This document shows, piece after piece, positions 24,598 through 62,929 of a stretch of 64,000 bases of DNA. The notes under the pieces are model-generated. The model saw only the letters and a list, made by a program, of their open reading frames with translations, was not told the origin of the DNA and did no database searches. Position 1 is the first letter of the stretch, and each line of letters starts with the position of its first letter. The translations under genes and the position numbers were made by a program. The DNA is from an uncultured Actinomyces sp. (GTDB lineage: Bacteria; Actinomycetota; Actinomycetes; Actinomycetales; Actinomycetaceae). The DNA lies in contig URAS01000002.1 of assembly GCA_900545825.1 (NCBI GenBank), forward strand, positions 91,953 to 155,952, in the 5' to 3' direction.

Positions 24598-25199
24598 CGA
24601 GCCTCTCCCCTGCCTTCCCGCATCGCCACCAGATCCGCATTCAACGCCACCACATTAACCCGGGGCATCCCGACGACCCCGAGGGCGGGGGCCTGCGTGT
24701 CACGCTTCACGAGGGCGGCGACCAGGGCACGGTCGAGGTGGTTGGCCCGCGCCACACGTGTGACCTGGGCGTTCGCGGTGGCCGGCGTGATGTCGGGGTC
24801 GATGCCCGAGGCCGATGCCGTGACGGCGTCCGCGCCGACGGCGCCCTCGGGCACCCCATCGGCGGCGGCGAATGCCGCGCGGCGACGACGGACGTCCTCG
24901 CGCCACGCCGGGTCCCCGGGGACCCGATTGCTGGGGCCCGTACCGACGAACCGGTAGCCCGTGGCCGAGGGGCGTCCGTGGAACAGCGTGGGATCGGCCG
25001 AGAAATCCTGCCCGACCAGCGCGGATCCGACCTCGCGGCCGTCGGATGCGATGGCGCGGCCGGTCGCGTGGCCGGGAACTGCCGCCGCCGCGGCGCCGAC
25101 GAGGAGCGGATAGCCGATGCCCGCGACCAGGGTCAGCCCGACGAGGGCGACCAGGCCGGTCACGCAGTAGCGGGCGAAAAGACGAAAAACACCTCGCAT
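24594..25199 (-). CDS. kdpC: K+-transporting ATPase subunit KdpC
   Basis: Internal ATG after AAAGGAGGA. 201 aa starting MRGVFRLFARYCVTGLVALVGL. Confidence 0.85.
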   Translation of the reverse strand: MRGVFRLFARYCVTGLVALVGLTLVAGIGYPLLVGAAAAAVPGHATGRAIASDGREVGSALVGQDFSADPTLFHGRPSATGYRFVGTGPSNRVPGDPAWREDVRRRRAAFAAADGVPEGAVGADAVTASASGIDPDITPATANAQVTRVARANHLDRALVAALVKRDTQAPALGVVGMPRVNVVALNADLVAMREGRGEAR

Positions 25200-25210
25200 G
25201 ACGTCCTCCT

Positions 25211-27241
25211 TTACGACAACGCCGGAATCAGCGTGAGGATGAGATCGATGATTTTGATGCCGACGAACGGCGCGATGAGGCCGCCCAGCCCGTAGATCGC
25301 CAGGTTGCGCCCCAGCAGCTGCTGCGCCCCGCCCGCGCGGTAGGCGACGCCGCGCAGCGCCAGCGGGATGAGGGCGACGATGATGAGGGCGTTGAAGATG
25401 ATCGCCGACAGGATCGCCGAGGACGGGCTGTGGAGGTGCATGATGTTGAGCGCCCGCAGCGCGGGAATCGACGTCATAAACATCGCGGGGATGATCGCGA
25501 AGTACTTGGCGACGTCGTTGGCGATCGAGAACGTCGTCAGCGCCCCGCGGGTGATGAGCAGCTGTTTGCCGATGTGGACGATGTCGATGAGTTTCGTCGG
25601 GTCGGAGTCGAGGTCGATCATGTTGGCGGCCTCTTTCGCCGCCGACGTCCCCGTGTTCATCGCGACACCGACGTCGGCCTGGGCGAGGGCGGGCGCGTCG
25701 TTCGTCCCGTCGCCGGTCATGGCGACCAGCCGGCCGGCCTCCTGTTCGCGCCGGATGAGGGCGAGCTTGTCCTCGGGTTTCGCCTCGGCGAGAAAGTCGT
25801 CGACGCCCGCCTCCGCCGCGATCGCGCGGGCGGTCAGCTGATTGTCGCCGGTGATCATCACCGTGCGGATCCCCATGGCCCGCAGCTGCTCGAAACGCTC
25901 GGCGATGCCCTCCTTGACGATGTCTTTGAGCGCAATGACACCGAGCAGGGACATGTCCTCGCCCCGGCAGTCGGCGACGATGAGGGCGGTGCCGCCCGCC
26001 GAGGCGATCCGGTCGGCCTCGCCCTCGGCCTCGGCGGCGACGGCCGCCCTTCCGCCGGCGGCCGCGAACCGGGCGAGGATCTCTGACGCCGCGCCCTTGA
26101 CGATGCGGTGGCCGTCGCCGAAGTCGATGCCCGACGCCCTCGTGGCCGCCGAGAACGGCATGAAGGTCGCCATCGCGTAGTCCTTTTCGTCGATCGCGGC
26201 GAGGCCGGTCTTTTCGGCGAGGGCGACGATCGAGCGACCCTCGGGCGTCGTGTCCGCGAAGGACGCCAGCTGGGCGGCGTGCGCGAGCTCGCCCTCGGTA
26301 ACGCCGCTGACCGGGCAAAACTCGGTGGCCTGGCGGTCGCCGATCGTGATCGTCCCCGTCTTGTCGAGCAGCAGGGTGTCGACGTCGCCGGCCGCCTCGA
26401 CCGCGCGCCCCGACATCGCGAGGACGTTGTGGGTGACCAGCCGGTCCATGCCGGCGATCCCGATCGCCGACAACAGGGCGCCGATCGTCGTCGGCACCAG
26501 GCAGACCAGCAGGGCGACGAGGACGCTGAGGCTCTGGCCGGCGTGGGCGAAGCGCGCCGCGGGCGCGAGGGTGGCGACGACGAACAGGAAAATGAGGGTG
26601 AGGACGGCGAGGAAGATCGTCAGGGCGATCTCGTTCGGCGTCTTCGCGCGGGCGGCGCCCTCGACGAGGCCGATCATCCGGTCGATGAAGGTCTCGCCCG
26701 GCTTCGACATGACGCGGACGTCGATGGTGTCGGACAGCACGGTCGTGCCGCCCGTGACGGCGCAGCGGTCGCCGCCCGATTCGCGGATGACGGGCGCGGA
26801 CTCGCCGGTGACGGCGGACTCGTCGACGGTCGCGGCGCCGGCGATGACGTCGCCGTCGGCGGGGATGACCTCGCCCGCGCGGACCACGACGACGTCGCCG
26901 AGGGCGAGGTCGGAGGCGCTAACGTCCTCGATGCCGTTCTCGGTCTTGCGGTGGGCGATCGTCGAGACGCGGGTGGCGCGCAGCGATTCGGCCTGGGCCC
27001 GCCCGCGGGCCTCGGCCAGCGCCTCGGCCATGTTGCCGAAGATCACCGTGAGGAACAGCCACACGGTCAGCGAAATCGTCAGCGCACCAGGGTGCATGAT
27101 CGCCGAGACGAGGGTGACGAGGGTGCCGACAAAGACGATGAACATGACGGGCGTGTGGATGAGGAGGCGCGGATCGAGCTTGACCAGCGCCTCCTTCAGC
27201 GCGCCCCGCCACTTGTCGCTCGAGCGGGTCAGTGCAGTCAT
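25211..27241 (-). CDS. kdpB: K+-transporting P-type ATPase subunit KdpB
   Basis: Contains DKTGTIT (phosphorylation site) and TGDN. The ATG overlaps the kdpA stop codon as ATGA. Confidence 0.92.
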
Positions 27242-28902
27242 GACAGTCCTTCCACAACCGGTCCCAGCGCGAGGGCGGGGACGAATGTCAGTCCGGCGAT
27301 GAGGACGGCCACGCCCACCATGACGCCGATAAAGAGGGGACGATGCGTCGGCAGGGTCCCCGCGCTTTCGCTGGCGCGCCCCGCGGTGGCCAGGCGCCCC
27401 GCGAGGGCCAGGACGAAGCAGATGGGGATGAAGCGGCCGCACACCATGGCGAGGCTCGTCGCCACGGCGATCGGCGGGACCTGTGCGTGAAGGCCGCCCA
27501 TGGCCGACCCGTTGTTGTTGCCGGCCGACGCGAAGGCGTAGAGCAGCTCGGAGAAGCCGCCGGCGCCCGGCGCGCTCATCGCCGCCCGCGCCTGGGAGAT
27601 CCCCAGGCACACGGCGGTTCCCACGAGGACGAGGATCGGCGTGATCAGCGTATAGAGGCTGATCAGCGTCATTTCGCGCGGCCCGATCCGTTTGCCCAGG
27701 TATTCGGGGGTGCGCCCGACCATGAGGCCGGCGAGGAACACGGCGATCATCGCGACGATGAGGATGCCGTAGAGGCCGGAGCCGACGCCGCCGGGGGCGA
27801 CCTCGCCGATGAGCATGTTGAGCATGAGGAGGGCGCGCGCTCCCCCGCTGAAGCTCGCGTGCGCCGAGTCGACGGCGCCGGTCGAGGTCAGCGTCGTCGC
27901 CGAGGCAAACAGCGCCGACGGGATGACGCCGAAGCGCACCTCCTTACCCTCCATCATCGCGCCGTTAGTGGCGAAGACGCCGGCGCGCGCGTGCCATTCG
28001 AGCGCCATCGTCGCCGCGGTAGAAGCCACGGCGAGGACGCCCATCGCGGCGAGGATCGCCCAGCCCTGGCGCTTTTGCCCGACCATGATCCCGAATGTCC
28101 TGGGCAGCGCCGTGGGGATGAGGAGGATGAGGATGATCTCGACAAGGTTGGTCCACGCCGTCGGGTTCTCGAACGGGTGCGCCGAGTTCGCACCGAAGTA
28201 CCCGCCACCGTTCGTGCCGAGTTCCTTGATCGCTTCCTGCGAGGCGACGGGCCCGGTGACGAGGGTCTGGTGCGCGCCGGTCAGCGTCGTCACCGTGTGG
28301 GCGCCGGCGAACGAATCGACGACGCCCAGGCAGACGAGGACGAGGGCGGCGACGACCGACAGCGGCAGGAGGATGCGGCCGATCGCCCTCGTGAGGTCGA
28401 CCCAGAAGTTGCCCAGCCCGGGGTGGTGGTCGCGGGTCAGCCCGCGGATGAGGGCGATCGCGACGCACAGCCCGACGGCGGCCGACGCGAAGTTCTGGAC
28501 GGCGATCCCGCCCATCTGCGCGGCGAAGCCCAGGACTTTCTCGCCGGAGTAGGCCTGCCAGTTCGTGTTGGTGACGAACGAGATCGCCGTGTTCGCCGCG
28601 AGCAGCGGGTTCATCGTCGCGCGTCCGCCCCATGGGGCCGGCAGTAGCGACTGCACCCTGACGATGACGTAGAGGACGACGACGCTGACGAACGAAAACG
28701 CGAGGACGGACAGGTAGTAGGTCATCCACCGCTGTTCGGCGTCGGGGTCGACGCCGAGCATCCGGTAGACGCCCCGTTCGACGCGCGTGTGCGCGGGGCT
28801 CGTCATCACGCGCGCGATATACGCGCCCATGGGGCGGTGCGCGAGGCCGAGGACGGCGACGACGAGGACGACCTGGGTGAGGCCGGCAGCGAGGGGGCTC
28901 AC
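27238..28902 (-). CDS. kdpA: K+-transporting ATPase subunit KdpA
   Basis: GTG at 28902 after GGAGGA. 554 aa, polytopic. Starts [32 protein letters not shown]. Confidence 0.9.
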
Positions 28903-34569: not shown

Positions 34570-34878
34570 TCAGAGTTTGATCTCGATGTTGACGTCAGCG
34601 GGCAGGTCGAGGCGCATGAGCGAATCGACTGCCTTGGGCGTCGGGTCGATGATGTCGATCAGCCGCTTGTGCGTACGCATCTCAAAGTGCTCGCGGCTGT
34701 CCTTGTACTTGTGCGGCGACCGAATAACGCAGTACACGTTCTTTTCGGTCGGGAGGGGCACCGGACCCACAACGGTGGCGCCGGCGCGCTGGACCGTATC
34801 CACGATCTTGCGAGCTGAGGAGTCGATGACCTCGTGGTCGTACGACTTCAGCCGGATGCGGATCTTCTGTCCCGCCAT
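34570..34878 (-). CDS. rpsJ: 30S ribosomal protein S10
   Basis: [26 protein letters not shown]... First gene of the S10 operon. A 290-bp leader with small hairpins lies upstream. Confidence 0.93.
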
Positions 34879-35169
34879 GCCGTTCTACCCTTCTTCTTCT
34901 GGTTCTCTTCCCCGGTCCCCGCTTCCGGGCGTGTCGGCAACTGCTGCTGCGCGCGCTCGGATGAACGATCCGGGATGTGGCTGGCTGACGCCGCCCGCCC
35001 GCCAAGAGGGCGGGTGAGCCGCAAGCCCAAACCGTGCCCACGACGGGCACGAAAGGAAACTTACGGAGCCGAGGAACCACTCTAGCAACGCCCGGACAAG
35101 GAAATCTAGTCGAGGTCGTGTGAAGGCTCCCACGTCCCCGCATCCGGGCGTGTCGCGCCGCCCCCCCGC

Positions 35170-36723
35170 TCAGTATCGCTGGACCTCGCCCATGACGCGC
35201 AGCGCAAAAGTCGCGAGTTTCTCCCACGTGTCGAGCGCCATGAACTCCATCGGCTCGCCCGTCGTCACGTCGGAGCGTGACGTGAGCATCGAACGGGTGT
35301 ATTGGGCGACGGCAGGCCACCCGTGGCGGACCCCGGTCCCGGAGTCGCGCCACCCCTGAATCGGCGCGTTCCATGCGCCCCACGTCATGTGGTAGCCGTC
35401 GTTGATCATGACGACGCCGGCGATGATGGCGTGGCTGACCCGGCGGGCCAGGTCCATGTCGGCGGTGAACACCTGGACGCAGTTGCAGTACTGCGACCGT
35501 TGGATCTCTGCCTTGACGACGGCGGAGTCGGTGAAACGCTCGACAACGAGGACCGGCCCGTACGTTTCTTCATCCCACACGAGGGCGTCGTGGGGCACGT
35601 CGGTCAATACGGTTGGCTCGAAGAACCACGGGCCGAGGTCGCTGCGCGTATGCCCTCCCGTGACGACCTGCGCGCCGCACGCGACGGCGTCGGAGACGTG
35701 GAGGGCGGTGCGCTCGAAGCGCTCCTGCGAATAGAGCGACCCCATCGTCACCATGTGGTCGTAGCGGGCCCCGACGACGATGCGCCGCTCGATGAGGGAC
35801 CGCAGTTGGGAGACGAAGGTGTCGTACACGGCGTCGGCGACGTAGACCTTTTCGGTGTGAACCGACGACTGCCCGGCGTTCATGAAGGCCTGCCAGGCGA
35901 CCGAGCGGACCGCGGTTTCCATGTCGGCGTCGGCAAAGACGATCGCCGGGTTCTTCACCGACATGAACGTCGTCGTCCCGACCCCGGCGTCCTGGGCCCG
36001 TTGGACGAGCGAGACGCCGCGCGCCGTGTTCCCGAAGTAGGTGATGTGGTCGAAGAGGTCGATGTGGTCGATCCCCAACTGCCGCGAATGTGAGGGGATG
36101 ACCTGCCACATGGCGGCTGGCACGCCGGCGGCGATCGCCAGCTGGCGGGTGGCTTCGGCGGCCGGATAGGCCTGGTTGGGAACGAATTGAACAATGCCGT
36201 TCCCGGCGACGATCGCGGGGAACACGTCGGCGGCGCCATACGAGAGGCCGTAGTCGCCCAGCGTGAAGAACCCGATGACCCCCATCGGCATGTAGTGCTG
36301 CCACACTGTCGTGACGAGCGGAAGGGCGCCGCAATTCCGCTGGCCACGCGACACTTTGGGGAGGGCCGAGGCGTGCTGGAGCGGCGAGTTGATCATGTCG
36401 GCCCACTGGTCGAACGCGTCGTAGCGCGACGAGCCACAGAACACCTGCACCATGCGGATGATCTTCTCGCGGTGGTGCTGGACCAGCCGGGCGAAGCGGT
36501 TCGCCGAGCGCCACCGCGTCTCACGGGGCAACTCCGCCCACTGGCGCTGCCCCTCGCGAGCCCGCTCGACGGCACGGGCGACGTCGGCCGGGGAGGCTTC
36601 GTTAAAGGTGACGAGCGGCCGACCGGTCCAGATCTCGTCGGCGTGGGTCTGCGGCCCGGAAAACGCTCGGGCGGGCGCGACGAGCGAGTCTAAGAATTCA
36701 AGGGGTATTCCCGTCGACCTCAT
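35170..36723 (-). CDS. ALDH-superfamily protein lacking the canonical catalytic residues (predicted non-catalytic or repurposed), paralog 1
   Basis: 517 aa (ATG after GAGAGGAAG). ALDH-fold landmarks are present (DEETYGPVLVVERF ~ EEIFGPV; ITYFGNTARG ~ FTGSTEVG). However the ELGGKSP general-base box reads FMSVKNP and the FFNQGQCC Cys box reads FMNAGQSSV. Confidence 0.7.
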   Translation of the reverse strand: MRSTGIPLEFLDSLVAPARAFSGPQTHADEIWTGRPLVTFNEASPADVARAVERAREGQRQWAELPRETRWRSANRFARLVQHHREKIIRMVQVFCGSSRYDAFDQWADMINSPLQHASALPKVSRGQRNCGALPLVTTVWQHYMPMGVIGFFTLGDYGLSYGAADVFPAIVAGNGIVQFVPNQAYPAAEATRQLAIAAGVPAAMWQVIPSHSRQLGIDHIDLFDHITYFGNTARGVSLVQRAQDAGVGTTTFMSVKNPAIVFADADMETAVRSVAWQAFMNAGQSSVHTEKVYVADAVYDTFVSQLRSLIERRIVVGARYDHMVTMGSLYSQERFERTALHVSDAVACGAQVVTGGHTRSDLGPWFFEPTVLTDVPHDALVWDEETYGPVLVVERFTDSAVVKAEIQRSQYCNCVQVFTADMDLARRVSHAIIAGVVMINDGYHMTWGAWNAPIQGWRDSGTGVRHGWPAVAQYTRSMLTSRSDVTTGEPMEFMALDTWEKLATFALRVMGEVQRY

Positions 36724-36989
36724 CGTCGCTTCCTCTCTGCCTGGGGGCTGGGCAAATGTGACCCTGATGTTCAGTCAGGGTAGCAAAAGAGGAATACTCA
36801 CATAGCGGATACCGGAACGTGGTCCGGGGCACACGGCCGGACCGACGCCAGGGCCATGGCGAGAGCGACGGGCGGGTAAGGTCATCCTCGCAGGCCACGG
36901 GTAGGGACGCGGCGCGAAGCCGCCGGACAAACCGAGCACTCCCCACCGGACAGTGAGCGCTATCACATGGCGAGGGCGGGCTGGGGTGC

Positions 36990-38543
36990 CTAGTAGGTGT
37001 GGAAGTGGTCGCAGAACCTGAGGATCCTCCACGAGAGCTTCTCCCAGTTTTCCAGGGACATGTTCTCGTGGGGCTCGCCCGTGTAGCCGTACGAGCGCGA
37101 CGTGATCATCGACCGCGTGTATTGGCGCACGGCCGGCCAGCCGTGGCGCACGCCCGTGCCCGAATCACGCCAGCCCTGGACCGGCGCGTTCCATGCGCCC
37201 CACACCGAGTGGTAGCCGTCGTTAATGGCGACGAGGCCCGCGGGAACCGACTTGCTGATGCGCCGCGCCTTGGCGAAGTCGCTGGTGATGAGCTGGAGGC
37301 CCGAGCAGTACTGCGTCTGCCGCAGCTCGTCGAGGACCTCGTCCAGGTCGGTGAACCGTTCGACGATGAGCAGAGGCCCATAGGTTTCCTCGTCCCACGC
37401 GAGGGCGTGGTGGGGGACGTTGGCGAGGATCGTCGGCTCGTGGAACCACGGGCCGATGTCGGGCCTCGCCTTGCCGCCGGTCACGAGGTCGGCCCCGCAC
37501 ACGAGGGCGTCGTCGATGTGGGCGACCAGCCGGTCGAGGCGATCCTGGGAGTACAGCGACCCCATCGTCGCGCGGTGGTCGTAGCGGGCGCCGACGACGA
37601 TGCGCCGTTCGACCAGCGACTTCAGCCGCAGCATGAACTGGTCGTACACCTCCGCGGCAACGTAGACCTTCTCGATGTGGACCAACGACTGCCCGGCGTT
37701 CATGAACGACTGGTAGGCGACGGACCGCACGGCCGTCGCGAGGTCGGCGTCGGCGCACACGACCGACGGGTTGAGGACCGACATGAACATCGACGTCGAC
37801 GCGGAGGCGTCGTGGGCGTCCTGCATGACTGACACGCCCTTGGCCGTGTTGCCGATGTAGGTGATGTGGTCGAACAGCGGGATGTGGTCGATGCCTAGGC
37901 GCCGCGAATGCGACGGCATGACCTACCACATGTCGTTGGGCACGCCGGCCGCGATCGCCAGCTCCCGCATCGCCATCGCCGCGGGATAGGCCTGGTTGGG
38001 GACGAACTGGACGACGCCGTTGCCGGCCACGATGATCGGGAGGACGTCGACCGGGCCGTACGAGATCGGATAGTCGGCCAGCGTAAAGATCGCGATGACG
38101 CCGAGCGGCATGTACTCGCGGCGCACCGTCGAGATCAGCGGGATCGAGCCATAGTGGGTGTCCGGCGCCATGGCGCGCCGCATGGCCTGCGAGAACTGCA
38201 TGGCCGAGTTGTAGGCGTCCTCGAACTGGTCAAACGCGTCGAACCGGGACTGCCCGCCGGTGACCTGGAGGAGGCGGACGAGCCTTTCGCGGTGCCGGGA
38301 GATGAGGCCGGCGTAGCGGCGGACAATCCGCCACCTGGCATCCATCGACAGCTTGAGCCATTCCTGTTGCCCGGCGCGGGCGGCGTCGACGGCCCGCAAC
38401 ACGTCGAGGGGGGCCGCCTCCTGGAATGTCGCCAGCGGTCGGCCCGTCCACACCTGGACCGACGTCGCCTGCTGCCCACCGTACTCCTTAGCCGGCTCGA
38501 CGAGCCGATGGAAGAAGCTGCTGGGGATTCCGGGGGAAATCAT
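36990..38543 (-). pseudogene. ALDH-superfamily paralog 2 (517 codons, same degenerate active site), interrupted by an in-frame TAG at 37923-37925
   Basis: The two ORFs 37923..38543 and 36990..37919 are in the same frame: ...AGVPNDMW*VMPSHSRRLGIDHI versus paralog 1 ...AGVPAAMWQVIPSHSRQLGIDHI (CAG to TAG). The Cys box reads FMNAGQSLVH. Confidence 0.6.
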
Positions 38544-38640
38544 GCGTCAACTCCATTCTGCCGATGGCACCACGCAACACTGCCAACTCATGACGCTGTC
38601 TTCCAGCATCGTACACGCGTCGCGCAGAAGTGCCCACAGG

Positions 38641-38683
38641 AACAGGGGCGGACCTGCTCTGAATGAGCAGGTCCGCCCCTGTT
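38641..38683 (-). terminator. GC-rich 19-bp hairpin downstream of tuf, acting as a U-tract-poor intrinsic terminator; on the plus strand it is followed by TTTT
   Basis: AACAGGGGCGGACCTGCTC-tgaat-GAGCAGGTCCGCCCCTGTT. Confidence 0.55.
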
Positions 38684-38710
38684 TTAGACTAGGTTGACCC
38701 TAGGTGACGA

Positions 38711-39901
38711 TCACAGATCGATCTTCGTCACACGGCCCGAACCGACCGTGCGGCCACCCTCGCGGATAGCGAAGCCGAGGCCGACCTCCATGGCGATCGG
38801 CTGAATGAGCTCAACCGTGATCTCCGTGGTGTCGCCGGGCATAACCATCTGCGTGTCCTCGGGCAGCGTGATAACGCCCGTGACGTCGGTGGTGCGGAAG
38901 TAGAACTGCGGACGGTAGTTCGAGAAGAACGCCTTGTGACGGCCGCCCTCTTCCTTCTTGAGGATGTAGACCTGGCCCTCGAACTTCGTGTGCGTCGTGA
39001 CCGAACCCGGGGCGCAGACAACCTGGCCACGCTCGACCTCTTCGCGCTTGATGCCGCGCAGCAGCAGGCCGGAGTTGTCGCCAGCCTGGCACTCGTCCTG
39101 CGACTTGTGGAAGGTCTCGATGCCGGTGACCGTCGTGTGCTGCGGCTCGCGGATACCGAGGATGTCGACCTCGGAGTTCAGGGCCAGCTTGCCACGCTCG
39201 ATACGGCCGGTGACGACCGTGCCACGACCGGTGATCGTGAAGACGTCCTCGATCGGCATGAGGAACGGCTTGTCGAGGTCGCGCTGCGGCTCCGGGATGT
39301 AGGTGTCGACCGCGTCCATGAGGTCCTCGATCGCCTTCGTCCACTTCGGGTCGCCCTCGAGCGCCTTGAGCGCCGAAACGCGGATAACCGGAGCGTTCTC
39401 GCCGTCGAAGCCCTGGGACGAGAGGAGGTCACGGACCTCTTCCTCGACCAGTTCGAGCATCTCTTCGTCGTCGACCATGTCGGCCTTGTTGAGGGCGACG
39501 AGGATCGCCGGGACGCCCACCTGGCGGGCGAGCAGAACGTGCTCGCGCGTCTGGGCCATCGGGCCGTCGGTGGCGGCGACAACGAGGATCGCGCCGTCCA
39601 TCTGGGCCGCACCGGTGATCATGTTCTTGATGTAGTCGGCGTGGCCGGGGGCGTCAACGTGAGCGTAGTGACGCTTCTCGGTCTCGTACTCGACGTGCGA
39701 AACGTTGATCGTGATGCCACGGTCGCGCTCTTCAGGAGCGTTGTCGACCTGGTCGAACGGGGTGAACTCGTTGAGATCGGGGTACTTGTCGTGAAGCACC
39801 TTGGTGATCGCCGCGGTCAGCGTCGTCTTGCCGTGGTCAACGTGACCGATGGTGCCGACGTTGACGTGCGGCTTGGTGCGTTCAAACTTGGCCTTAGCCA
39901 C
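38711..39901 (-). CDS. tuf: Elongation factor Tu
   Basis: [32 protein letters not shown]... 396 aa. Confidence 0.97.
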
Positions 39902-40035: not shown

Positions 40036-42153
<2,118 letters not shown>

Positions 42154-43509: not shown

Positions 43510-45393
43510 CTAGGCCGGGTAGATCCCCTCGAAGAAGTCGGCGAGCCGCTCGGGTTCACTGAGCGGGACGATCGCCGCGACATACATGTCGGGGCGCACG
43601 GCGATGGCGACGCCGCCGCGGTCGATCTCGCGCTCGGCGAAGATGTCGACGTCCTCGGTAATCCCGAAGACTTTTTCGAGGTTGATGAGCCCCAGCGGCC
43701 CCGTGACCGGCTTAAACAGGTCGGGCACGTCGTTGGGGTCGATGTCGTGGTGATCCTGCTGATAGATGACCTTGACGTCAAAGAGGGCGTCGAGGTCGTC
43801 GCCCTCGCGGCGGGTCGTAAGGATCGGCGAGCGGTCGTTCGACGCCATCCACTCGGCCCACGCGCGCAGCACCGAATCCTTGGCCTCGGCGGGCGCCGAG
43901 TCGGCGAACGCGTAGATCCGCCAGCGCCCGTCGGCCTCGTGGAGATGGCCCAGCTGCTTGGGGTTCGCGTCGCAGCGGCGGCCGACCTCGGCCGACTTGA
44001 AGCGCTTGCCCAGCGGGAAACCCTTGGCGAGGTCGGTCGCCGAGTCGCCGAAGGTGAGGACCGAAGGGCGGTACTGCGTCATGAAGCCGGCCGGGAACTC
44101 CGCGGTCTGGACGTAGAAGTCCTCGATGCTCAAGCCGTCCTCTTCCTTGACCATCATCGACGACCAGCGCGAGTCAAAGTCGATGAGGTCCTGGGCGATC
44201 TGCTGCCGCTCGGCCGTGTAGGTTCCCAGCAGTGAGCCGGGCGCGCGGCCGGTGAGGACATGCCCGAGCTTCCAGCCCAGGTTAAAGGCGTCCTGCATCG
44301 ACACGTTCATCCCCTGCCCCGCCTTCGCCGAGTGCGTGTGGCACGCGTCGCCGGCGATAAAGACGTGCGGGTCGCGGGTGCCGGCCTCCTCGACCGGGAT
44401 CTCGTCGAACCGGTCGGTCACGCGGTGACCCACCTCGTAGACGGACCACCAGGCGACCTCGCGGACGTCGAGCGTGTAAGGCGAGAGGATCGCGTTGGCG
44501 CGGCGGATGATCTCCTCGATCGGGGTCTCGCGCACCTTGTGGTGGTCGGCCTGCGTCTGATCGCCGAGGTCGACGTAGATGCGGGCGAGGTAGCCGCCCT
44601 CGCGGGGAATGTGGAGGATCGAGCCGTGCGTCGACTGGATGATCGCCTTGTTACGAATGTCCGGGAAGTCGGTGTTCGACAGGACGTCCATGACGCCCCA
44701 CGCATGCATCTGTGCCTTGCCCAGGTGGCGGGCACCGATCGCCCGACGCACCCGCGAATGCGCACCATCCCCGCCGAACAGGTACTTCGTCCGCACGGTG
44801 AACTGCTCACCATCGTGGTCGCCACCCACGTGCGCCACCGTCGCCAGCACCGGATACTCGGCGCCCTCGTCAAACTCGAGGTCGACGAACTCGTAGCCGT
44901 AATACGGCTTCAAGCGGGCCGGCGAGTAGCGTTCGGCGCGCTCGCGGAAGTAGTCGAGGATGCGCGCCTGGTTGATGATGAGGTGGGGGAACTCCGAGAT
45001 CCCCATGGGGTCGTCGGGCGTGCGCGTCGTGCGGACGATGTGGTCGGGGTTGTCCGGATCCGGCTTCCAGAAGGACGTCTCGGTGATCCGGTAGGCCTCG
45101 GCTTTGACTTCCTCGGCGAAGCCGAACGCCTGGAACGTCTCGACGCTGCGCTGCTGGACGCCGTCGGCGTGGCCGAGGACCAGACGGCCCTCGCGCTTTT
45201 CAATCATGGCCGTCCGCACCGTCGGGAAGTCCGCCAGCTGCGAGAACATGAGCATTCCCGCGGGGCCGGACCCCACAATGAGGACGTCGAGTTCGGTGGG
45301 CAGGGTGTCGGGGCGTTCCTCGAGGCCGACTCCGGCGGCGGGCTTGACCCGCGGATCCGTCGACACATACCCGTAGTGGTGAAATTGCTGCAT
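43510..45393 (-). CDS. FAD-dependent aromatic ring hydroxylase of the phenol 2-monooxygenase family with a C-terminal thioredoxin-like domain; candidate hydroxyphenylacetate hydroxylase
   Basis: 627 aa with VLIVGSGPAGM (GxGxxG), GDACHTHSAKAGQGMN (the DG/GD motifs of group A flavin monooxygenases) and a ~170-aa C-terminal extension. Confidence 0.7.
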   Translation of the reverse strand: MQQFHHYGYVSTDPRVKPAAGVGLEERPDTLPTELDVLIVGSGPAGMLMFSQLADFPTVRTAMIEKREGRLVLGHADGVQQRSVETFQAFGFAEEVKAEAYRITETSFWKPDPDNPDHIVRTTRTPDDPMGISEFPHLIINQARILDYFRERAERYSPARLKPYYGYEFVDLEFDEGAEYPVLATVAHVGGDHDGEQFTVRTKYLFGGDGAHSRVRRAIGARHLGKAQMHAWGVMDVLSNTDFPDIRNKAIIQSTHGSILHIPREGGYLARIYVDLGDQTQADHHKVRETPIEEIIRRANAILSPYTLDVREVAWWSVYEVGHRVTDRFDEIPVEEAGTRDPHVFIAGDACHTHSAKAGQGMNVSMQDAFNLGWKLGHVLTGRAPGSLLGTYTAERQQIAQDLIDFDSRWSSMMVKEEDGLSIEDFYVQTAEFPAGFMTQYRPSVLTFGDSATDLAKGFPLGKRFKSAEVGRRCDANPKQLGHLHEADGRWRIYAFADSAPAEAKDSVLRAWAEWMASNDRSPILTTRREGDDLDALFDVKVIYQQDHHDIDPNDVPDLFKPVTGPLGLINLEKVFGITEDVDIFAEREIDRGGVAIAVRPDMYVAAIVPLSEPERLADFFEGIYPA

Positions 45394-45561
45394 GGTCGCT
45401 CCTCACAACCTTGTGGGGTGATCTACCAGCACGATCATATATGCTTCCAGATAGGATGCCAAGAGTTTGGGCGACTTTTCCGCAGCCCCTCCCCCGAGAC
45501 GGCGGATCGTGTATGATTTCGGATAGGATTATGTATCCCGTAGCAGACCCAAGGAGGCGTT

Positions 45562-46347
45562 ATGCTCACCGACTCGCAGATCACCCGTATCGCCGATGAC
45601 CTCCTCGAGGCCCATCGCACCCGCACCCCGATCCCCCTGCTCACCAAGCGTTTCGACGGCATGGAGGTCGCCGACTCGTACGCCGTCCAGCGGCTGTGGG
45701 CCCAGCGGACCCGCGACGCCGGGCGCACGCTCGTCGGCCGCAAGATCGGCCTGACGTCGAAGGCCATGCAGGACGCCACGGGCATCACCGAGCCCGACTA
45801 CGGGGTCATTTTCGACGACATGGTCTTCGAGTCGGGCTGCGAGGTCGACTGGGGCCGCTACACCCACCCCCGCATCGAGGTCGAGCTGGCGTTCGTCCTC
45901 GGGAAGGACGTCACCGGGCCCGCGGCGACGGTGTTCGACGTCCTCGACGCGACCGAATGGGTGACGCCGGCGCTCGAGATCCTCGACTCGCGCATCGAGA
46001 TGGAGGGCCGGACGATCGTCGACACGATCGCCGACAACGCGGCGATGGGCGCGATGGTCGTCGGCGGCCGCCCGATGCGGGTCGACCAGCTGGATCTGCG
46101 CTGGGTCGGCGCGATGCTCTACCGCAACCAGACGATCGAGGAGACGGGCGTGGCCGGCGGCGTCCTCGGGCATCCGGCGAACGGCGTCGCGTGGCTGGCG
46201 AACAAGATCGCGCCGCACGGCGACCACCTGCACGCCGGCGAGATCATCCTCGCCGGGTCGTTCACGCGGCCGATGTGGGTCTACGAGGGCGACTCGGTGG
46301 TCGCCGACTACGGGCGAATGGGGACGGTGACATGCCAGTTCAACTGA
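45562..46347 (+). CDS. hpaH: 2-oxo-hept-4-ene-1,7-dioate / 2-keto-4-pentenoate hydratase (MhpD/HpaH family)
   Basis: 261 aa (RBS AAGGAGG) with [14 protein letters not shown] and [12 protein letters not shown] motifs. Confidence 0.8.
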
Positions 46348-47123
46348 GCACTTCTCGCACGCTGATCGCCCACCTGGCCGAGGCGGGGCGCCCGCTGGCC
46401 GGCATGTGGGTGTGTTCGGCCTCGCCGATCGCCGCGGAGATTTGCGCGGGATCCGGCCTCGACTACGTGCTGATCGACGCCGAGCATTCGCCGAATGACC
46501 TCTCGACACTGTTGCCGCAGCTGCACGCGTGCGCGGCGTACCCGGCGACGACGATCGTCAGGGTGCCGTACAACGACGAACGCCTCATCAAGCAGTTCCT
46601 GGACCTCGGTGTCGTTAACCTGTTGGTCCCTATGGTGCACACGGCCGAGCAGGCGCGCGCCGCCGTCGCGCGCGTCACCTATCCGCCGGAGGGCGTGCGC
46701 GGTGTCGGGTCGGCGCTGGCGCGGGCGTCGCGGTGGAATCGCGTGCCGAATTACCTGGCGAGGGCGCGCGAGACGATTTCGCTGATCCTCCAGATCGAGT
46801 CGGGCCAGGCCTGCGAGAACGTCGACGAGATCGCGGCGGTCGAGGGCGTCGACGCCCTCTTCGTGGGGCCGGCGGATTTGGCGGGCGACCTCGGGCTGCT
46901 GGGTCAGGCCGAGGACGAGGCCGTCGTCGAGCGGGTGCTCGCCTGCATCGAGGCGGGCCACCGCGCGGGCAAGCCGGTGGGGACGAACGCGTTTAACCCG
47001 GAGATGGCCAGGCGGTATTTCGAGGCTGGGGCGGACTTCGTCCTCGTGGGGGCGGACGTCACGCTGCTGGCGAGGGCCAGCGAGAAGTTGGCGGACGACT
47101 ACCTGCCGACGCTCGGCGGCTAG
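46332..47123 (+). CDS. hpaI: HpcH/HpaI-family aldolase (4-hydroxy-2-oxoheptanedioate aldolase)
   Basis: 263 aa. The ATG at 46332 overlaps the hydratase gene end by 16 nt. Contains LIDAEHSPND and LQIESGQA. Confidence 0.8.
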   Translation: MPVQLSTSRTLIAHLAEAGRPLAGMWVCSASPIAAEICAGSGLDYVLIDAEHSPNDLSTLLPQLHACAAYPATTIVRVPYNDERLIKQFLDLGVVNLLVPMVHTAEQARAAVARVTYPPEGVRGVGSALARASRWNRVPNYLARARETISLILQIESGQACENVDEIAAVEGVDALFVGPADLAGDLGLLGQAEDEAVVERVLACIEAGHRAGKPVGTNAFNPEMARRYFEAGADFVLVGADVTLLARASEKLADDYLPTLGG

Positions 47124-47139
47124 AGCCGCCCTCTTACGC

Positions 47140-47219
47140 GAAGCGCTCACCTAACGTGTTAAAACTGCCGGATACCGGACAGGATCGACATTTTAGGTGA
47201 GCGTTTCGGTTTTTTCGCG
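47140..47219. repeat. Copy A of the GAAACGCTCACC / GGTGAGCGTTTC repeat family. Here it ends in GGTTTTTT, so it also looks like the intrinsic terminator of the hydratase-aldolase operon
   Basis: GAAGCGCTCACC-TAACGTGTTAAAACTGCCGGATACCGGACAGGATCGACATTTTA-GGTGAGCGTTTC-GGTTTTTTCGCG. Its reverse complement is ~85% identical to copy B. Confidence 0.55.
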
Positions 47220-47223
47220 GAGG

Positions 47224-48657
47224 CTACCGCGGGAGGCCGACGTAGATCGTCTCTTCGAACTCGTCGATGCCCTCGAGGCCACCCTCGCGGCCCAGGCCCG
47301 ACGCTTTGACGCCGCCGAAGGGCGCCGCGGCGTTCGAGATGGTCCCGGAGTTGACGCCGAGCATCCCGACCTCGAGGCGGCGGGCCAGCCGCATGATCCG
47401 GCCGATATCGCGGGTGTGGACGTAGCCGGCGAGGCCGAACTCGGTGTCGTTGGCGTAGCGGACGACCTCGTCCTCGTCGTCGAAGCCGCAGATGGCGGCG
47501 ACGGGGCCGAAGACCTCCTCGCGCATGAGCGGGTTGTCGGGCGCGACGTCGCCGATCACGGTCGGCGGGTAGAAGTAGCCGGCGCCCTCGGGGACCTGGC
47601 CGCCGCAGCGCAGGATGCCGCCCGCGGCGACCGACCGGTCGACGAGGTCGGCGACATGGTCGCGCTGCTTCGCCGAGATAATCGGGCCGACGTCGACGCC
47701 CTCGGCCATCCCGTCGCCGACGGTCATCGCGGCGAACGCGTCGGCCAGGCGCGACGTGAACTCGGCCTGCAGCGACCGGTGGACGTAGAAGCGCGAGGAC
47801 GCGTTGCAGGCCTCGCCCATGTTGCGCATCTTCGTCGCGATCGCGGCGTCGACGGCGAGGGCGAGGTCGGCGTCCTCGAAGACGATAAACGGCGCCAGGC
47901 CGCCCAATTCCATCGAGGTGCGGAGGACGTTTTCGGCGGCCTCGCGCAGCAGGGCCCGCCCGACGCCGGTCGAGCCGGTGAACGAGATCTTCCGCAGCCG
48001 GGGATCGGCGATCATCGGGCCGGTCATCGGCGGCGTGTCCGCGGTCGGGACGACGTTGACGACGCCGGCGGGCAGGCCGATCTGGTCGAACACCTCGGCG
48101 AGCAGGAGCGACGTCAGCGGGGTCGCGTCGGAGGGCTTGAGGACGCACGTGCAGCCGGCCGCGAGCGCCGGCGCGATCTTGCGGGTGGCCATGGCGAGGG
48201 GGAAGTTCCACGGCGTGATGAAGAGGCACGGCCCGACGGGGCGCTTGAGGGTGAGGACGTGGACGCCGCCCTCGGGGGTGGGGTAGCTGGCGCCGTGGGC
48301 GTGGGGCGCGGATTCGGCGAACCAGCGCAAGAATTCGGCGCCGTAGGTGACCTCGGCGTATGCCTGGTCGAGGGGCTTGCCCATCTCGAGGGTCATGCAG
48401 CGGGCGAAGTCGTCGGCGCGGGCGGTGACGGCGTCGAAGGCGCGGGCGAGGTAGTCGGCGCGGACGCGCACGGGGGTCTCGGCCCAGGATTCGGCGGCGC
48501 GGTGGGCGGCGTCGAGGGCGGCCATGCCGTCGGCGGGCGACGCCGAGGCGACCTCGGCGAGGACGTCCTCGGTGGCGGGGTTGACGACGGGGAAGGTCTG
48601 GCCGGTCGCGGACGGCCGCCAGGTGCCGTCGATAAAGAGCGAGGTCGGATAGGACAT
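47224..48657 (-). CDS. NAD(P)+-dependent succinate-semialdehyde dehydrogenase (GabD-like), paralog 1
   Basis: 477 aa from an internal ATG (MSYPTSLFIDGTWRP). Contains MELGGLAP (Glu) and MGEACNASSRF (Cys). The 71-codon upstream extension was rejected. Confidence 0.8.
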   Translation of the reverse strand: MSYPTSLFIDGTWRPSATGQTFPVVNPATEDVLAEVASASPADGMAALDAAHRAAESWAETPVRVRADYLARAFDAVTARADDFARCMTLEMGKPLDQAYAEVTYGAEFLRWFAESAPHAHGASYPTPEGGVHVLTLKRPVGPCLFITPWNFPLAMATRKIAPALAAGCTCVLKPSDATPLTSLLLAEVFDQIGLPAGVVNVVPTADTPPMTGPMIADPRLRKISFTGSTGVGRALLREAAENVLRTSMELGGLAPFIVFEDADLALAVDAAIATKMRNMGEACNASSRFYVHRSLQAEFTSRLADAFAAMTVGDGMAEGVDVGPIISAKQRDHVADLVDRSVAAGGILRCGGQVPEGAGYFYPPTVIGDVAPDNPLMREEVFGPVAAICGFDDEDEVVRYANDTEFGLAGYVHTRDIGRIMRLARRLEVGMLGVNSGTISNAAAPFGGVKASGLGREGGLEGIDEFEETIYVGLPR

Positions 48658-48715
48658 GCGGGGGATCCTTTCGGGCCTGAAGGCTGGGGGGGTCGGCGAC
48701 GGTGCCGAACCTCCC

Positions 48716-48900
48716 ACTAATCGTATATGATTTCCTCGATAACGCGCCAGCCCCCGCGAGCCAACCGCCCCGGCCAGGCCCTTCACGCATCCCGACCACA
48801 CGCAATCCGCCAGAGAGAACTTCGCCGTTCCTCTTGACGCCGCCTGGTCGACCCCGTAGGCTGGAGTCAATCATATACGATTGAATGTATGATTAATCCG
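48716..48900. promoter_or_regulatory. Divergent promoter region carrying the operator-like 12-bp palindromes ATCGTATATGAT (48720-48731) and ATCATATACGAT (48870-48881), plus the half-site GAATGTATGATT
   Basis: AT-rich palindromes in a 70% GC background. The same motif occurs at 45506-45517 and 54102-54113. Confidence 0.5.
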
Positions 48901-48933
48901 AGAGAGACGACGTCGACTCCCACGGGAAGGACT

Positions 48934-50415: not shown

Positions 50416-50499
50416 CCCCGCAGGCGTCACTCCGCCCGACATCCCGGCGCCCAGCGCCCCGACACTTGTTGATTGTTCCGACTGACTGAAGGAGACCCC

Positions 50500-52032: not shown

Positions 52033-52121
52033 CCCCTCCGCGCGGCGTGGGCGGCCCGTCCACGCCGCGGCCTACACAGGCAATGCCCGATTACCGATGT
52101 CACAGCCAAAGGAGACTGATC

Positions 52122-53201: not shown

Positions 53202-53303
53202 ACCAGCCCACGTTGTGGCACCCGGGCGGCGGCGGCCGGTCCCCATCCCGTTATGCTGGGACCGGCGCCGCTACCGGGCGGCGTCGCGATCAAGGAGGCT
53301 GAG

Positions 53304-53960: not shown

Positions 53961-54072
53961 CCGCCGGCGTCACCCCCTGCGTCACCCCGGCAGGCGGGCG
54001 GTCGGTCGCGGCGATGCCCTGCGCGGCGCTGTTGTCGCGCGCGAGGGCGCCGCGGTTTTTCCTCGTTATCTC

Positions 54073-54150
54073 TTGACACCGTGGCGTACGTCACGGTTAT
54101 AATCGTATACGATCGCGTTTATGGTCGCATATGTGACTCACGTTCACCGC
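54073..54150 (+). promoter_or_regulatory. Near-consensus promoter of the MFS gene (TTGACA at 54073-54078, 19 nt, TATAAT at 54098-54103) overlapped by three operator-like palindromes
   Basis: CCGTGGCGTACGTCACGG sits between the -35 and -10 boxes. ATCGTATACGAT (54102-54113) overlaps the -10. CTCACGTTCAC (54138-54148) matches the GTCACGTTCAC motif of the 60-63 kb inverted repeats. Confidence 0.5.
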
Positions 54151-54161
54151 TGATAGGAGCC

Positions 54162-62812: not shown

Positions 62813-62929
62813 GGTTTCGCTCCTTCGCGATCGGTCGGCCCCCGCACACGCGCCAGGGCCGGCGGAATTGTCCGTTTTTCTCAGCCTAACGCCGGGGCCC
62901 AACTTCGGCACCCGCAGGCGCTACCCCCA

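What the first reader, a model, noticed from the sequence alone, without database searches (positions are those of the whole stretch)
35170..38543. Tandem pair of catalytically degenerate ALDH-superfamily proteins between tuf and the S10 operon
Two ~55%-identical 517-codon paralogs retain the ALDH fold landmarks (DEETYGPV, FTGS-like GNTARG). Both lack every key catalytic residue. The general base Glu of ELGGKSP is replaced (FMSVKNP / FMSVLNP). The nucleophilic Cys of GQCC is replaced by Ser (GQSSV / GQSLV). The oxyanion Asn of WNFP is replaced (GDYG). They sit in the variable slot between tuf and rpsJ and each has its own RBS. This looks like a pseudo-enzyme or a repurposed binding or structural protein rather than a dehydrogenase. 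I know of no characterised ALDH-like family with this residue pattern in this genomic slot.
Basis: partly seen in the sequence, partly recalled or inferred. Interest (0 to 1): 0.75.

Follow-up and report, generated by a model that had tools for sequence, protein, structure and literature searches.

The report
Dead aldehyde-dehydrogenase-like gene pair beside rpsJ
Two neighbouring genes encode proteins that keep the aldehyde dehydrogenase fold but have lost every residue needed for that chemistry and for binding NAD(P); they belong to a small, conserved, unstudied family found only in Actinomycetaceae, and in this strain one copy has recently been broken by a stop codon.

Summary
The core observation holds, with corrections. 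Two ALDH-superfamily genes lie on the minus strand between tuf and rpsJ. Copy B (35170..36723) is an intact 517-aa ORF. The copies are 61% identical, not ~55%. Asn169, Lys192, Glu268 and Cys302 (ALDH2 numbering) are replaced by Asp, Phe, Phe and Ser; the window's copy A has Leu at 302. Four glycines that contact the cofactor are also replaced. The predicted structure is a canonical ALDH fold (pLDDT 94.8). The proteins belong to a single clade of 19 sequence clusters derived from GabD2-type succinic semialdehyde dehydrogenases. Every named member is from Actinomycetaceae (Nanchangia, Mobiluncus, Varibaculum, MAGs). The substitutions are conserved across the clade and dN/dS is 0.22-0.36, so the family is under selection and is not decaying. 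The gene sits immediately upstream of rpsJ in six lineages. Other strains carry an intact copy A (Q207, Ser302), so the window allele is a recent pseudogene. Three canonical ALDHs lie in the same window. Most likely this is a non-catalytic ALDH-fold protein with a remodelled cofactor cleft. Its function is unknown and I found no published description.

The parts
35170..36723 (-). Copy B: intact 517-aa ALDH-fold pseudoenzyme gene. Key codons (ALDH2 numbering): D157 = Asn169 (36253..36255), F180 = Lys192 (36184..36186), F253 = Glu268 (35965..35967), S287 = Cys302 (35863..35865), H289 (35857..35859), Y388 = Phe401 (35560..35562).
   Evidence: ORF. Pfam PF00171 at 259 bits. NCBIfam NF006916 at 400.6 bits, below the cutoff of 521. 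AF2 model pLDDT 94.8. Foldseek TM 0.85-0.92 to ALDHs. The identical protein is found on 37 contigs. Codon coordinates.
36990..38543 (-). Copy A: paralogue of copy B (61% identical), 517 codons, interrupted in this strain. It is a recent pseudogene, or at best a split gene.
   Evidence: Intact 517-aa alleles P0122 and P0124 are on 18+3 contigs; the split form is on 11-14 contigs. Locus L007 carries the intact allele.
37923..37925 (-). In-frame TAG at codon 207 of copy A. It is CAG (Gln) in copy B and in the intact allele, and Gln at this position is invariant in the core family (alignment A2).
37683..37685 (-). Codon 287 of copy A (the Cys302 position). It is TTG (Leu) in the window and TCG (Ser) in the intact allele.
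38283..38285 (-). Codon 87 of copy A. It is AGG (Arg) in the window and AAG (Lys) in the intact allele; Lys is the family consensus (REKL).
38644..38680 (-). Terminator-like hairpin after tuf: 16-bp perfect arms, extending to a 19-bp stem. It separates tuf from copy A.
   Evidence: Sequence. Fold gives z = -5.95. The sub-threshold Rfam mir-302 hit is this hairpin.
38551..38554 (-). Shine-Dalgarno GGAG, 7 nt upstream of the copy A ATG.
36730..36735 (-). Shine-Dalgarno GAGGAA, 6 nt upstream of the copy B ATG.
34879..35169 (-). Spacer between copy B and rpsJ (291 bp). It holds a conserved motif GACACGCCCG-N4-6-GGGGAC(G/C) twice (35133..35154 and 34914..34935), a TTCACA box (35119..35124) and a -10-like TAGAGT (35079..35084). 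This is probably the S10-operon promoter and leader.
   Evidence: Alignment of spacers from four species. The motif is restricted to this spacer in the window and the loci. Coordinates.

Best explanation
The locus carries a tandem pair of lineage-specific ALDH-fold pseudoenzymes that descend from GabD2-type succinic semialdehyde dehydrogenases. Shown: the proteins keep the complete ALDH architecture, but the thiol nucleophile, the general base, the oxyanion Asn, the ribose-binding Lys and four cofactor-contact glycines are all replaced. The replacements are conserved across the clade and mostly bulkier or aromatic (I165F, K192F, E268F, G270S, G271V/T, G225S/A, T244I, F401Y). The family is held under purifying selection in Actinomycetaceae. 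Copy B is intact. Copy A was maintained for a long time and was then knocked out in this strain by CAG->TAG, with two further amino-acid changes. Inferred: the protein cannot oxidise aldehydes through a thiohemiacetal and most likely no longer binds NAD(P)+ in the canonical way. I infer that it works without catalysis, as an oligomeric ALDH scaffold whose former cofactor and substrate cleft is now an aromatic-lined site with a conserved Asp, His and Tyr. That site would bind a different small ligand or a partner protein, possibly a paralogue, because several lineages keep two copies. The conserved position just upstream of rpsJ probably reflects ancestry and the S10 promoter lying in the spacer, not a role in translation.
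For: Fold: Pfam PF00171; AF2 pLDDT 94.8, pTM 0.92; Foldseek top hits are all ALDHs, with 3jz4 at TM 0.85/0.91 and rmsd 1.8 A. Loss of residues: alignments to solved ALDHs and a table of 19 degenerate versus 40 active sequences. That table gives N169->D in 18/19, K192->F/Y in 19/19, E268->F in 17/19, C302->no Cys in 19/19, I165->F in 19/19, G270->S in 16/19, G225->S/A/D in 15/19 and F401->Y in 17/19, while the active clade is at least 92% canonical at each position. No alternative conserved Cys exists. Of 13 clade-defining substitutions, at least 7 lie in cofactor or catalytic motifs. Origin: the best NCBIfam model is NF006916 (GabD2-type SSADH) over the full length, at 400 bits against a cutoff of 521, and the clade is monophyletic next to active GabD2-like proteins in an NJ tree. 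Selection: intact ORFs in 19 clusters across Nanchangia, Mobiluncus, Varibaculum and MAGs; dN/dS of 0.22-0.36; 130 invariant columns in the core clade. Not needed for ALDH chemistry: three canonical ALDHs lie in the same window. Copy A decay: 3 of the 5 differences between two strains over 11.5 kb fall in copy A, and all three are non-synonymous and derived (P = 0.02); another TAG-allele contig carries 4 further amino-acid changes. Two paralogues are kept in several lineages: the window, Mobiluncus (tandem, 37% identical), GCA_030540715.1 (P0275 plus P0278), and the SRR31383136 sample, where P0131 and P0008 co-occur.
Against: No biochemical or expression data exist for any member. Loss of NAD(P) binding is inferred from sequence positions and general knowledge of ALDH and Rossmann folds, and I could not inspect model coordinates. 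Glu399, Gly245 and Gly250 of the cofactor site are retained, so residual or altered nucleotide binding is not excluded. The strong conservation of Asp169, His304, Tyr401 and, in the core subclade, Ser301-Ser302 could equally indicate a new catalytic site. Copy A is dispensable in a successful strain lineage, so a strictly required A/B heteromer is unlikely. Codon adaptation is only average, and no binding partner or ligand is suggested by a consistent gene neighbourhood.
Confidence: 0.6

Rival explanations
1. Neo-enzyme: the remodelled cleft carries out new chemistry that needs neither NAD nor a thiol, for example a hydrolase or esterase using Ser302, His304 and Asp169, or an Asp/His acid-base pair acting on a ligand held by the aromatic residues.
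For: Asp169 (18/19), His304 (15/19) and Tyr401 (17/19) are conserved replacements that active relatives do not have, and Ser301-Ser302 is invariant in the core subclade. A dead site with no remaining role would be expected to drift, and this one does not. Canonical ALDHs have a side esterase activity at the same site (established knowledge).
Against: The residue at position 302 varies across the clade (S10, P5, R, T, V, I). The rpsJ-linked orthologues P0275 and P0131 have Pro and P0134 has Thr, so a Ser nucleophile cannot be the clade's common mechanism. Triad geometry could not be measured. No neighbouring genes suggest a substrate.
Confidence: 0.17
2. Regulatory subunit: the pseudoenzyme forms mixed oligomers with a catalytically active ALDH, or with its own paralogue, and modulates that enzyme's activity or stability, as inactive subunits do in other oligomeric enzyme families.
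For: ALDHs are obligate dimers or tetramers, and the oligomerisation elements and C-terminal helix are modelled with high confidence. Several lineages keep two degenerate paralogues. The organism has at least three active ALDHs within 27 kb. Inactive ALDH2*2 subunits dominantly affect heterotetramers (PMC10211241).
Against: The active ALDHs in the window are not GabD2-type and are only distantly related, and no active GabD2 partner was seen next to any family member. Copy A is lost without an obvious cost in one strain lineage. There is no co-occurrence or interaction evidence.
Confidence: 0.13
3. Translation-linked role: the protein acts with the ribosome or the translation apparatus, which would explain its fixed position between tuf and rpsJ.
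For: The gene is immediately upstream of rpsJ on the same strand in six lineages, with four different upstream neighbours (tuf, rplQ, an Rce1-like gene, an MCP gene), and directly after tuf in Mobiluncus. No significant terminator structure follows copy A or copy B, so read-through into the S10 operon is possible.
Against: Codon adaptation is ordinary (0.54 and 0.63, against 0.74 for ribosomal-protein and EF genes and 0.62 for other genes). The spacer has its own conserved promoter-like and leader elements, which by itself would discourage rearrangement breakpoints there. Paralogues and the Varibaculum orthologue sit in unrelated contexts: whiB, lactate utilisation, and a 2-oxoacid:ferredoxin oxidoreductase cluster. 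Nothing in the fold suggests RNA or ribosome binding.
Confidence: 0.05
4. Decaying relics: both genes are non-functional remnants of a former SSADH and do nothing.
For: Copy A is demonstrably broken in this strain and keeps accumulating amino-acid changes. All catalytic residues are gone.
Against: Full-length ORFs persist in 19 sequence clusters across several genera. dN/dS is 0.22-0.36. The substitutions are conserved across the clade instead of random. Copy B is identical on 37 contigs.
Confidence: 0.05

Closest known systems
GabD2-type succinic semialdehyde dehydrogenase (NCBIfam NF006916 / PRK09407; M. tuberculosis Rv1731 type)
   Same: It is the best-scoring curated family, matched over the full length including the ~40-residue C-terminal helix (profile positions 19-524 of 526). 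The nearest active relatives, at 31-36% identity, are of this type, and the degenerate clade branches beside them.
   Different: The score of 400 bits is below the family cutoff of 521. Asn169, Lys192, Glu268 and Cys302 are all replaced, so it cannot be an SSADH. Some database records for Mobiluncus curtisii members still carry the SSADH name.
Vertebrate ALDH16A1, the described ALDH-superfamily pseudoenzyme
   Same: It is an ALDH-fold protein that has lost the catalytic residues and is thought to act through protein-protein interaction (PMC12041015).
   Different: ALDH16A1 has an extra C-terminal PutA-like domain, belongs to another ALDH family (cd07111), and its bacterial orthologues are active. 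The proteins here are single-domain, bacterial and GabD2-derived, and the entire clade is degenerate.
Canonical NAD(P)+-dependent ALDHs such as E. coli GabD (3jz4) and human ALDH2
   Same: They share the three-domain fold (TM 0.85-0.92, rmsd 1.8-2.0 A) and the structural Gly/Pro motifs, and Glu399 is retained.
   Different: Identity is 24-26%, and the entire catalytic and cofactor-contact set is replaced. The three canonical ALDHs in the same window keep that set.
Taxon-restricted inactive ALDH-derived lens proteins (crystallins)
   Same: These are precedents for an ALDH scaffold being reused without catalysis. (PMC10211241) mentions eta-crystallin as an ALDH; that cephalopod and scallop omega-crystallins are inactive is from my own knowledge.
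   Different: Crystallins are eukaryotic, extremely abundant structural proteins. Codon usage here gives no sign of high expression.

Membership tests
ALDH superfamily (Pfam PF00171 fold) | Significant match to the family profile over the whole domain | tested here: met
   Copy B scores 258.9 bits against a cutoff of 23, covering residues 33-477 and profile positions 16-457 of 461. The copy A fragments score 73.7 and 171.6 bits.
ALDH superfamily (Pfam PF00171 fold) | Three-domain ALDH architecture | tested here: met
   AF2 model with pLDDT 94.8 and pTM 0.92. All top Foldseek PDB hits are ALDHs, with TM 0.85-0.92.
Catalytically competent aldehyde dehydrogenase | Nucleophilic Cys302 | tested here: not met
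   The position is Ser in copy B and Leu in the window's copy A (Ser in the intact allele). Across the clade, 0 of 19 sequences have Cys there, against 40 of 40 active relatives, and no other Cys column is conserved.
Catalytically competent aldehyde dehydrogenase | General base Glu268 (ELGGK motif) | tested here: not met
   The position is Phe in both copies. The clade has F17/Y1/N1, and active relatives have Glu in 40 of 40.
Catalytically competent aldehyde dehydrogenase | Oxyanion-hole Asn169 (PWN motif) | tested here: not met
   The position is Asp in both copies. The clade has D18/E1, and active relatives have Asn in 40 of 40.
Catalytically competent aldehyde dehydrogenase | NAD(P)+ binding residues (Lys192; Gly225, Gly227, Gly270, Gly271; Thr244; Ser246; Glu399; Phe401) | tested here: not met
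   At sequence level, K192->F/Y in 19/19, the four glycines mostly carry side chains, T244->I/V/F, S246->N in 13/19 and F401->Y in 17/19. Only Gly245, Gly250 and Glu399 are kept. Actual binding cannot be tested with these tools.
GabD2-type SSADH (NCBIfam NF006916, equivalog) | Score at or above the curated cutoff (521 bits) | tested here: not met
   Copy B scores 400.6 bits and copy A (stop replaced by Gln) scores 390.3 bits. This is the best hit and covers the full length, but it is below the cutoff.
Pseudoenzyme (enzyme homologue lacking catalytic residues but maintained by selection) | Loss of catalytic motifs together with evidence of purifying selection | tested here: met
   For residue loss see the rows above. 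dN/dS is 0.22-0.36. Clade-specific conserved replacements are shown. Intact ORFs occur in 19 clusters and several genera.
Pseudoenzyme (enzyme homologue lacking catalytic residues but maintained by selection) | Demonstrated absence of the ancestral activity | not testable with these tools
   This needs enzyme assays on purified protein.
ALDH16A1-type pseudoenzyme | Additional C-terminal PutA-like domain; cd07111 lineage | tested here: not met
   The protein is 517 aa with a single ALDH domain plus a short C-terminal helix, and its nearest family is GabD2-type.
Pseudogene (copy A in this window only) | Disrupted reading frame relative to functional alleles, with signs of relaxed constraint | tested here: met
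   CAG->TAG at codon 207. Intact alleles exist (P0122, P0124, L007). Two more derived non-synonymous changes, including one at the family-invariant Ser287, are present, and another TAG-allele contig has four further changes. Whether re-initiation at the ATG two codons after the stop gives a usable split protein was not tested.

The most novel reading that the evidence does not exclude
Actinomycetaceae, including the bacterial-vaginosis-associated Mobiluncus, carry an unrecognised family of bacterial ALDH-fold proteins. In it the NAD(P)/catalytic cleft has been rebuilt into an aromatic box (Phe165, Phe192, Phe268, Tyr401) with a conserved Asp and His. Under this reading the protein acts as a receptor or sensor for a small, possibly cationic, metabolite, or as a cofactor-independent enzyme. 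It often works as a pair of paralogues and is kept at the head of the S10 ribosomal operon.
Probability: 0.3. Interest if true: 0.65.

Novelty: new variant of a known kind. Interest (0 to 1): 0.5.

Why it matters
Bacterial pseudoenzymes are rarely described. Within the ALDH superfamily, the recent superfamily review I consulted names only vertebrate ALDH16A1 as a pseudoenzyme. This finding is a clean case of a whole bacterial clade that lost catalysis and probably cofactor binding, yet has been conserved across genera, has duplicated repeatedly, and holds a fixed genomic position. Members occur in cultivable, clinically relevant Mobiluncus curtisii, so the predictions (no NAD(P) binding, no ALDH activity, a new ligand or partner) can be tested directly. 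There is also a practical point: these genes are annotated as 'aldehyde dehydrogenase' or 'succinic semialdehyde dehydrogenase', and that would mislead metabolic reconstructions of these organisms. Finally, the polymorphic knockout of copy A is a natural experiment on whether the second copy is dispensable.

Tried and rejected
(1) Riboswitch or known leader RNA in the three spacers. The Rfam scan at E<=1 gave only a sub-threshold mir-302 hit, which is the tuf terminator hairpin. (2) Sigma-70 promoter and intrinsic terminator scan. It found nothing useful, which is expected for a high-GC actinobacterium. (3) The TAG as a sequencing or assembly error. I rejected this because the split form is called on 11-14 contigs from NCBI, ENA and Logan, and the intact form on 21 others. 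(4) A Ser302/His304/Asp169 hydrolase triad as the family mechanism. I downgraded it because position 302 is Pro, Thr, Arg, Val or Ile in other clade members, including rpsJ-linked orthologues, and I could not obtain model coordinates to measure geometry. (5) A highly expressed, ribosome-like protein. Codon adaptation does not support it. (6) Shared regulatory motif upstream of the genes across species. No k-mer was shared clade-wide; there was only an ATGTGAG-N5-CTCA(CAT) inverted repeat in two close relatives and a half-site before copy B. (7) Recent horizontal acquisition. GC3 is 0.89-0.93, typical of the genome. (8) Literature on this clade, on bacterial ALDH pseudoenzymes, or on Mobiluncus ALDHs. 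Nothing relevant turned up. (9) A genome-wide search for an active GabD2 partner in Nanchangia or Mobiluncus.
Full report
1. WHAT IS IN THE SEQUENCE

Both genes lie on the minus strand, in the order fusA (40036..42153), tuf (38711..39901), copy A (36990..38543), copy B (35170..36723), rpsJ (34570..34878), rplC and onward.

Copy B is an uninterrupted 517-aa ORF. Copy A is 517 codons long, but codon 207 is TAG (37923..37925; 'tgg TAG gtc atg'). The ORF finder therefore reports it as two same-frame pieces of 206 and 309 aa. The aligned codon in copy B is CAG.

The two copies are 61% identical in protein, not ~55%.

Each gene has a Shine-Dalgarno sequence: GGAG at 38551..38554 and GAGGAA at 36730..36735.

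tuf is followed by a very stable hairpin (38644..38680, z = -5.95). The regions after copy A and copy B show no significant structure. No riboswitch or known leader RNA was detected.

2. THE FOLD IS KEPT BUT THE CHEMISTRY IS GONE

Copy B matches Pfam PF00171 over the whole domain, at only 259 bits. Three other ALDH genes in the same window score 527-549 bits.

The AlphaFold2 model is confident (pLDDT 94.8, pTM 0.92). It superposes on solved ALDHs with TM 0.85-0.92 and rmsd about 1.8-2 A, and E. coli SSADH 3jz4 is the top hit.

I aligned copy B to solved ALDHs and compared 19 degenerate sequences with 40 active relatives. In ALDH2 numbering, the degenerate clade shows:
- Asn169 -> Asp (18/19)
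- Lys192 -> Phe/Tyr (19/19)
- Glu268 -> Phe (17/19)
- Cys302 -> never Cys (S10, P5, R, T, V, I)
- Ile165 -> Phe (19/19)
- Gly225, Gly227, Gly270 and Gly271 mostly replaced by residues with side chains
- Thr244 -> Ile/Val/Phe
- Ser246 -> Asn (13/19)
- Phe401 -> Tyr (17/19)

Every one of these positions is at least 92% canonical in the active relatives. The three canonical ALDHs in this window keep PWN, Lys192, ELGG, Cys302 and EExFGP.

No other column in the degenerate clade has a conserved Cys.

The retained positions are the structural Gly/Pro residues, Gly245, Gly250 and Glu399.

From established knowledge of ALDH and Rossmann-fold cofactor sites, Lys192, Glu399, the 245-250 turn and these glycines pack against the dinucleotide. 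I therefore infer that canonical NAD(P)+ binding is lost as well. This is an inference from sequence, because I could not inspect model coordinates.

3. WHAT FAMILY IT IS

The closest curated family is NF006916, the GabD2-type succinic semialdehyde dehydrogenase. It matches over the full length, including the C-terminal helix, at 400 bits against a cutoff of 521.

A word-indexed search found only about eight close relatives, after which identity drops to 31-36% with active GabD2-like enzymes. A profile search of 1.84 billion representative proteins, a second indexed search and cluster look-ups enlarged the degenerate set to 19 clusters. Every hit scoring below them has the canonical W-N-K-E-C signature.

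Every named member is from Actinomycetaceae: Nanchangia anserum, Mobiluncus curtisii and uncultured Mobiluncus, Varibaculum sp., and several MAGs.

In a neighbour-joining tree (no bootstrap support) the degenerate proteins form one clade beside the active GabD2-like proteins.

Of the 13 clade-defining substitutions, at least seven (I165F, N169D, K192F, P193V, E268F, G270S, F401Y) lie in cofactor or catalytic motifs.

4. THE FAMILY IS UNDER SELECTION

Full-length ORFs persist across genera. The core clade has 130 invariant columns.

Nei-Gojobori dN/dS is 0.36 for A versus B and 0.22-0.28 between orthologues, with dS near saturation.

The replaced active-site residues are themselves conserved. 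That is the opposite of what a site with no remaining role would show.

5. GENOMIC POSITION

The gene is immediately upstream of rpsJ on the same strand in six lineages:
- the window (tuf-A-B-rpsJ)
- L001 and L002 (tuf-X-rpsJ)
- L016 (tuf, 165-aa gene, MCP gene, X, rpsJ)
- L008 (rpoA-rplQ-X-rpsJ)
- L012 (ABC, Rce1-like gene, X, rpsJ)

In Mobiluncus a tandem pair follows tuf directly and is followed by an ABC-transporter binding-protein gene.

Varibaculum has the gene between dnaB and a 2-oxoacid:ferredoxin oxidoreductase cluster. A second paralogous lineage (P0008, P0278) sits beside whiB or beside lactate-utilisation genes.

The spacer before rpsJ holds conserved elements. A motif GACACGCCCG-N4-6-GGGGAC(G/C) occurs twice, and a -10-like TA(G/A)(A/G)GT box aligns in four species. 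rpsJ therefore probably has its own promoter inside the spacer. That alone would make rearrangement breakpoints there costly, so I regard the synteny as ancestry plus this constraint and not as evidence for a translation role.

Codon adaptation points the same way. Copy B scores 0.54 and copy A 0.63, against 0.62 +/- 0.11 for other genes and 0.74 for ribosomal-protein and EF genes.

6. DUPLICATION AND RECENT LOSS OF COPY A

Copies A and B are each other's closest relatives. The Mobiluncus pair (37% identical) is a separate, older duplication.

Between A and B, third codon positions are 54% identical and first and second positions are 71% and 78%. Both copies were therefore maintained for a long time.

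Copy A exists in two forms in public assemblies: intact 517-aa alleles with Gln207 and Ser287 (P0122 and P0124, 21 contigs) and the split form (11-14 contigs).

I compared the window with a conspecific contig that carries the intact allele (L007) over 11,554 bp. There are only five real differences. Three are in copy A, and all three are non-synonymous and derived:
- K87R
- Q207*
- S287L, at the former nucleophile position
The binomial probability of this concentration is 0.02.

Another TAG-allele contig has four further amino-acid changes, while the two intact alleles differ by one residue. Copy A in this window is therefore a recent pseudogene.

An ATG lies two codons after the stop, so a split product through re-initiation cannot be excluded. 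However, the break falls inside a predicted beta-strand (residues 206-210 of the copy B model), and the extra changes argue for decay.

7. MECHANISM

Shown: the ALDH fold is kept, all catalytic residues and most cofactor-contact residues are lost, the replacements are conserved across the clade, the family is under purifying selection, and copy A is dispensable.

Inferred: the protein does not oxidise aldehydes, does not bind NAD(P)+ canonically, and acts without catalysis through a remodelled aromatic cleft (Phe165, Phe192, Phe268, Tyr401 with Asp169 and His304) on an oligomeric scaffold.

The rivals are a neo-enzyme, a regulatory subunit of an active ALDH or of its paralogue, a translation-linked role, and decaying relics. 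Their weights are given in the rival-explanations section.

8. COMPARISON WITH WHAT IS KNOWN, AND NOVELTY

The recent superfamily review I consulted names only vertebrate ALDH16A1 as a pseudoenzyme. That protein has an extra domain and belongs to a different ALDH family (PMC12041015).

Four literature searches found nothing on this clade. Database records call its members 'aldehyde dehydrogenase family protein' or 'succinic semialdehyde dehydrogenase'.

I classify it as a new variant of a known kind, meaning an ALDH-superfamily pseudoenzyme. Interest is moderate: it is a clean, testable bacterial case with cultivable hosts, but it is not a new principle and its function is still unknown.

Noticed in passing
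window 34914..34935 and 35133..35154 (minus strand); also L001 7743, L002 7755, L008 3779 and 3957, L012 6152: A conserved motif GACACGCCCG-N4-6-GGGGAC(G/C) occurs in the spacer upstream of rpsJ in at least five Actinomycetaceae lineages, twice in some. One copy lies just after the ALDH-like stop codon and one just before the rpsJ ribosome-binding site. It matches no Rfam family. It could be an S10-operon leader or operator element.
   Followed up: partly
window 35079..35084 and 35119..35124 (minus strand): A -10-like TAGAGT box aligns with TAAGGT and TAAAGT in other species, and a conserved TTCACA lies 34 nt upstream of it. This is the probable S10-operon promoter region. The 34-nt spacing is too long for a standard -35/-10 pair.
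   Followed up: partly
window 38634..38693: The tuf terminator hairpin gives a spurious sub-threshold Rfam hit to the mir-302 microRNA family (33 bits against a gathering score of 55).
   Followed up: yes
window 35161..35167: A poly-G run directly after the copy B stop codon differs in length by one G between the window and the conspecific contig L007.
   Followed up: no
window 43510..55604: A gene cluster that looks like an aromatic meta-cleavage pathway (homoprotocatechuate-type). It has an FAD phenol-hydroxylase-like gene (43510..45393), two canonical ALDHs (47224..48870 and 50473..52032), a FAA-hydrolase/RraA-like fusion (48889..50415), an extradiol dioxygenase (52047..53201) and an MFS transporter (54081..55604). 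A third canonical ALDH lies at 61349..62911.
   Followed up: partly
window 21970..27610: A KdpD sensor kinase gene and a P-type ATPase gene (kdp-like) lie between the S10-operon end of the ribosomal cluster and the spc/alpha-operon genes (secY 15388..16683, rpoA 11409..12413). They interrupt the usual contiguous arrangement.
   Followed up: no
L001 about 5940..5965, L002 about 5945..5970; window 36797..36803: An inverted repeat ATGTGAG-N5-CTCA(CAT) lies 35-45 nt upstream of the ALDH-like gene in two relatives. A half-site (ATGTGAG) lies upstream of copy B, with a TCACAT 36 nt further downstream. It may be an operator.
   Followed up: no
L018 425..3763 (Mobiluncus, DRR582280): Mobiluncus carries an independent, older tandem pair of degenerate ALDH-like genes (540 and 541 aa, 37% identical) directly after tuf. 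M. curtisii members are annotated in some records as succinic semialdehyde dehydrogenase, which is probably a misannotation.
   Followed up: partly
L012 4189..6081 (P0131): This rpsJ-linked orthologue is called as 630 aa, with an N-terminal extension of about 100 residues that is absent from all other members. This may be a mis-called start or a real addition.
   Followed up: no
L014 6001..12580 (Varibaculum sp.): Here the degenerate ALDH-like gene lies 100 bp upstream of, and on the same strand as, a 2-oxoacid:ferredoxin oxidoreductase gene set (gamma, alpha and beta subunits) and a GltD-like oxidoreductase gene. This is the only context that hints at a metabolic link to 2-oxoglutarate/succinate chemistry.
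   Followed up: no
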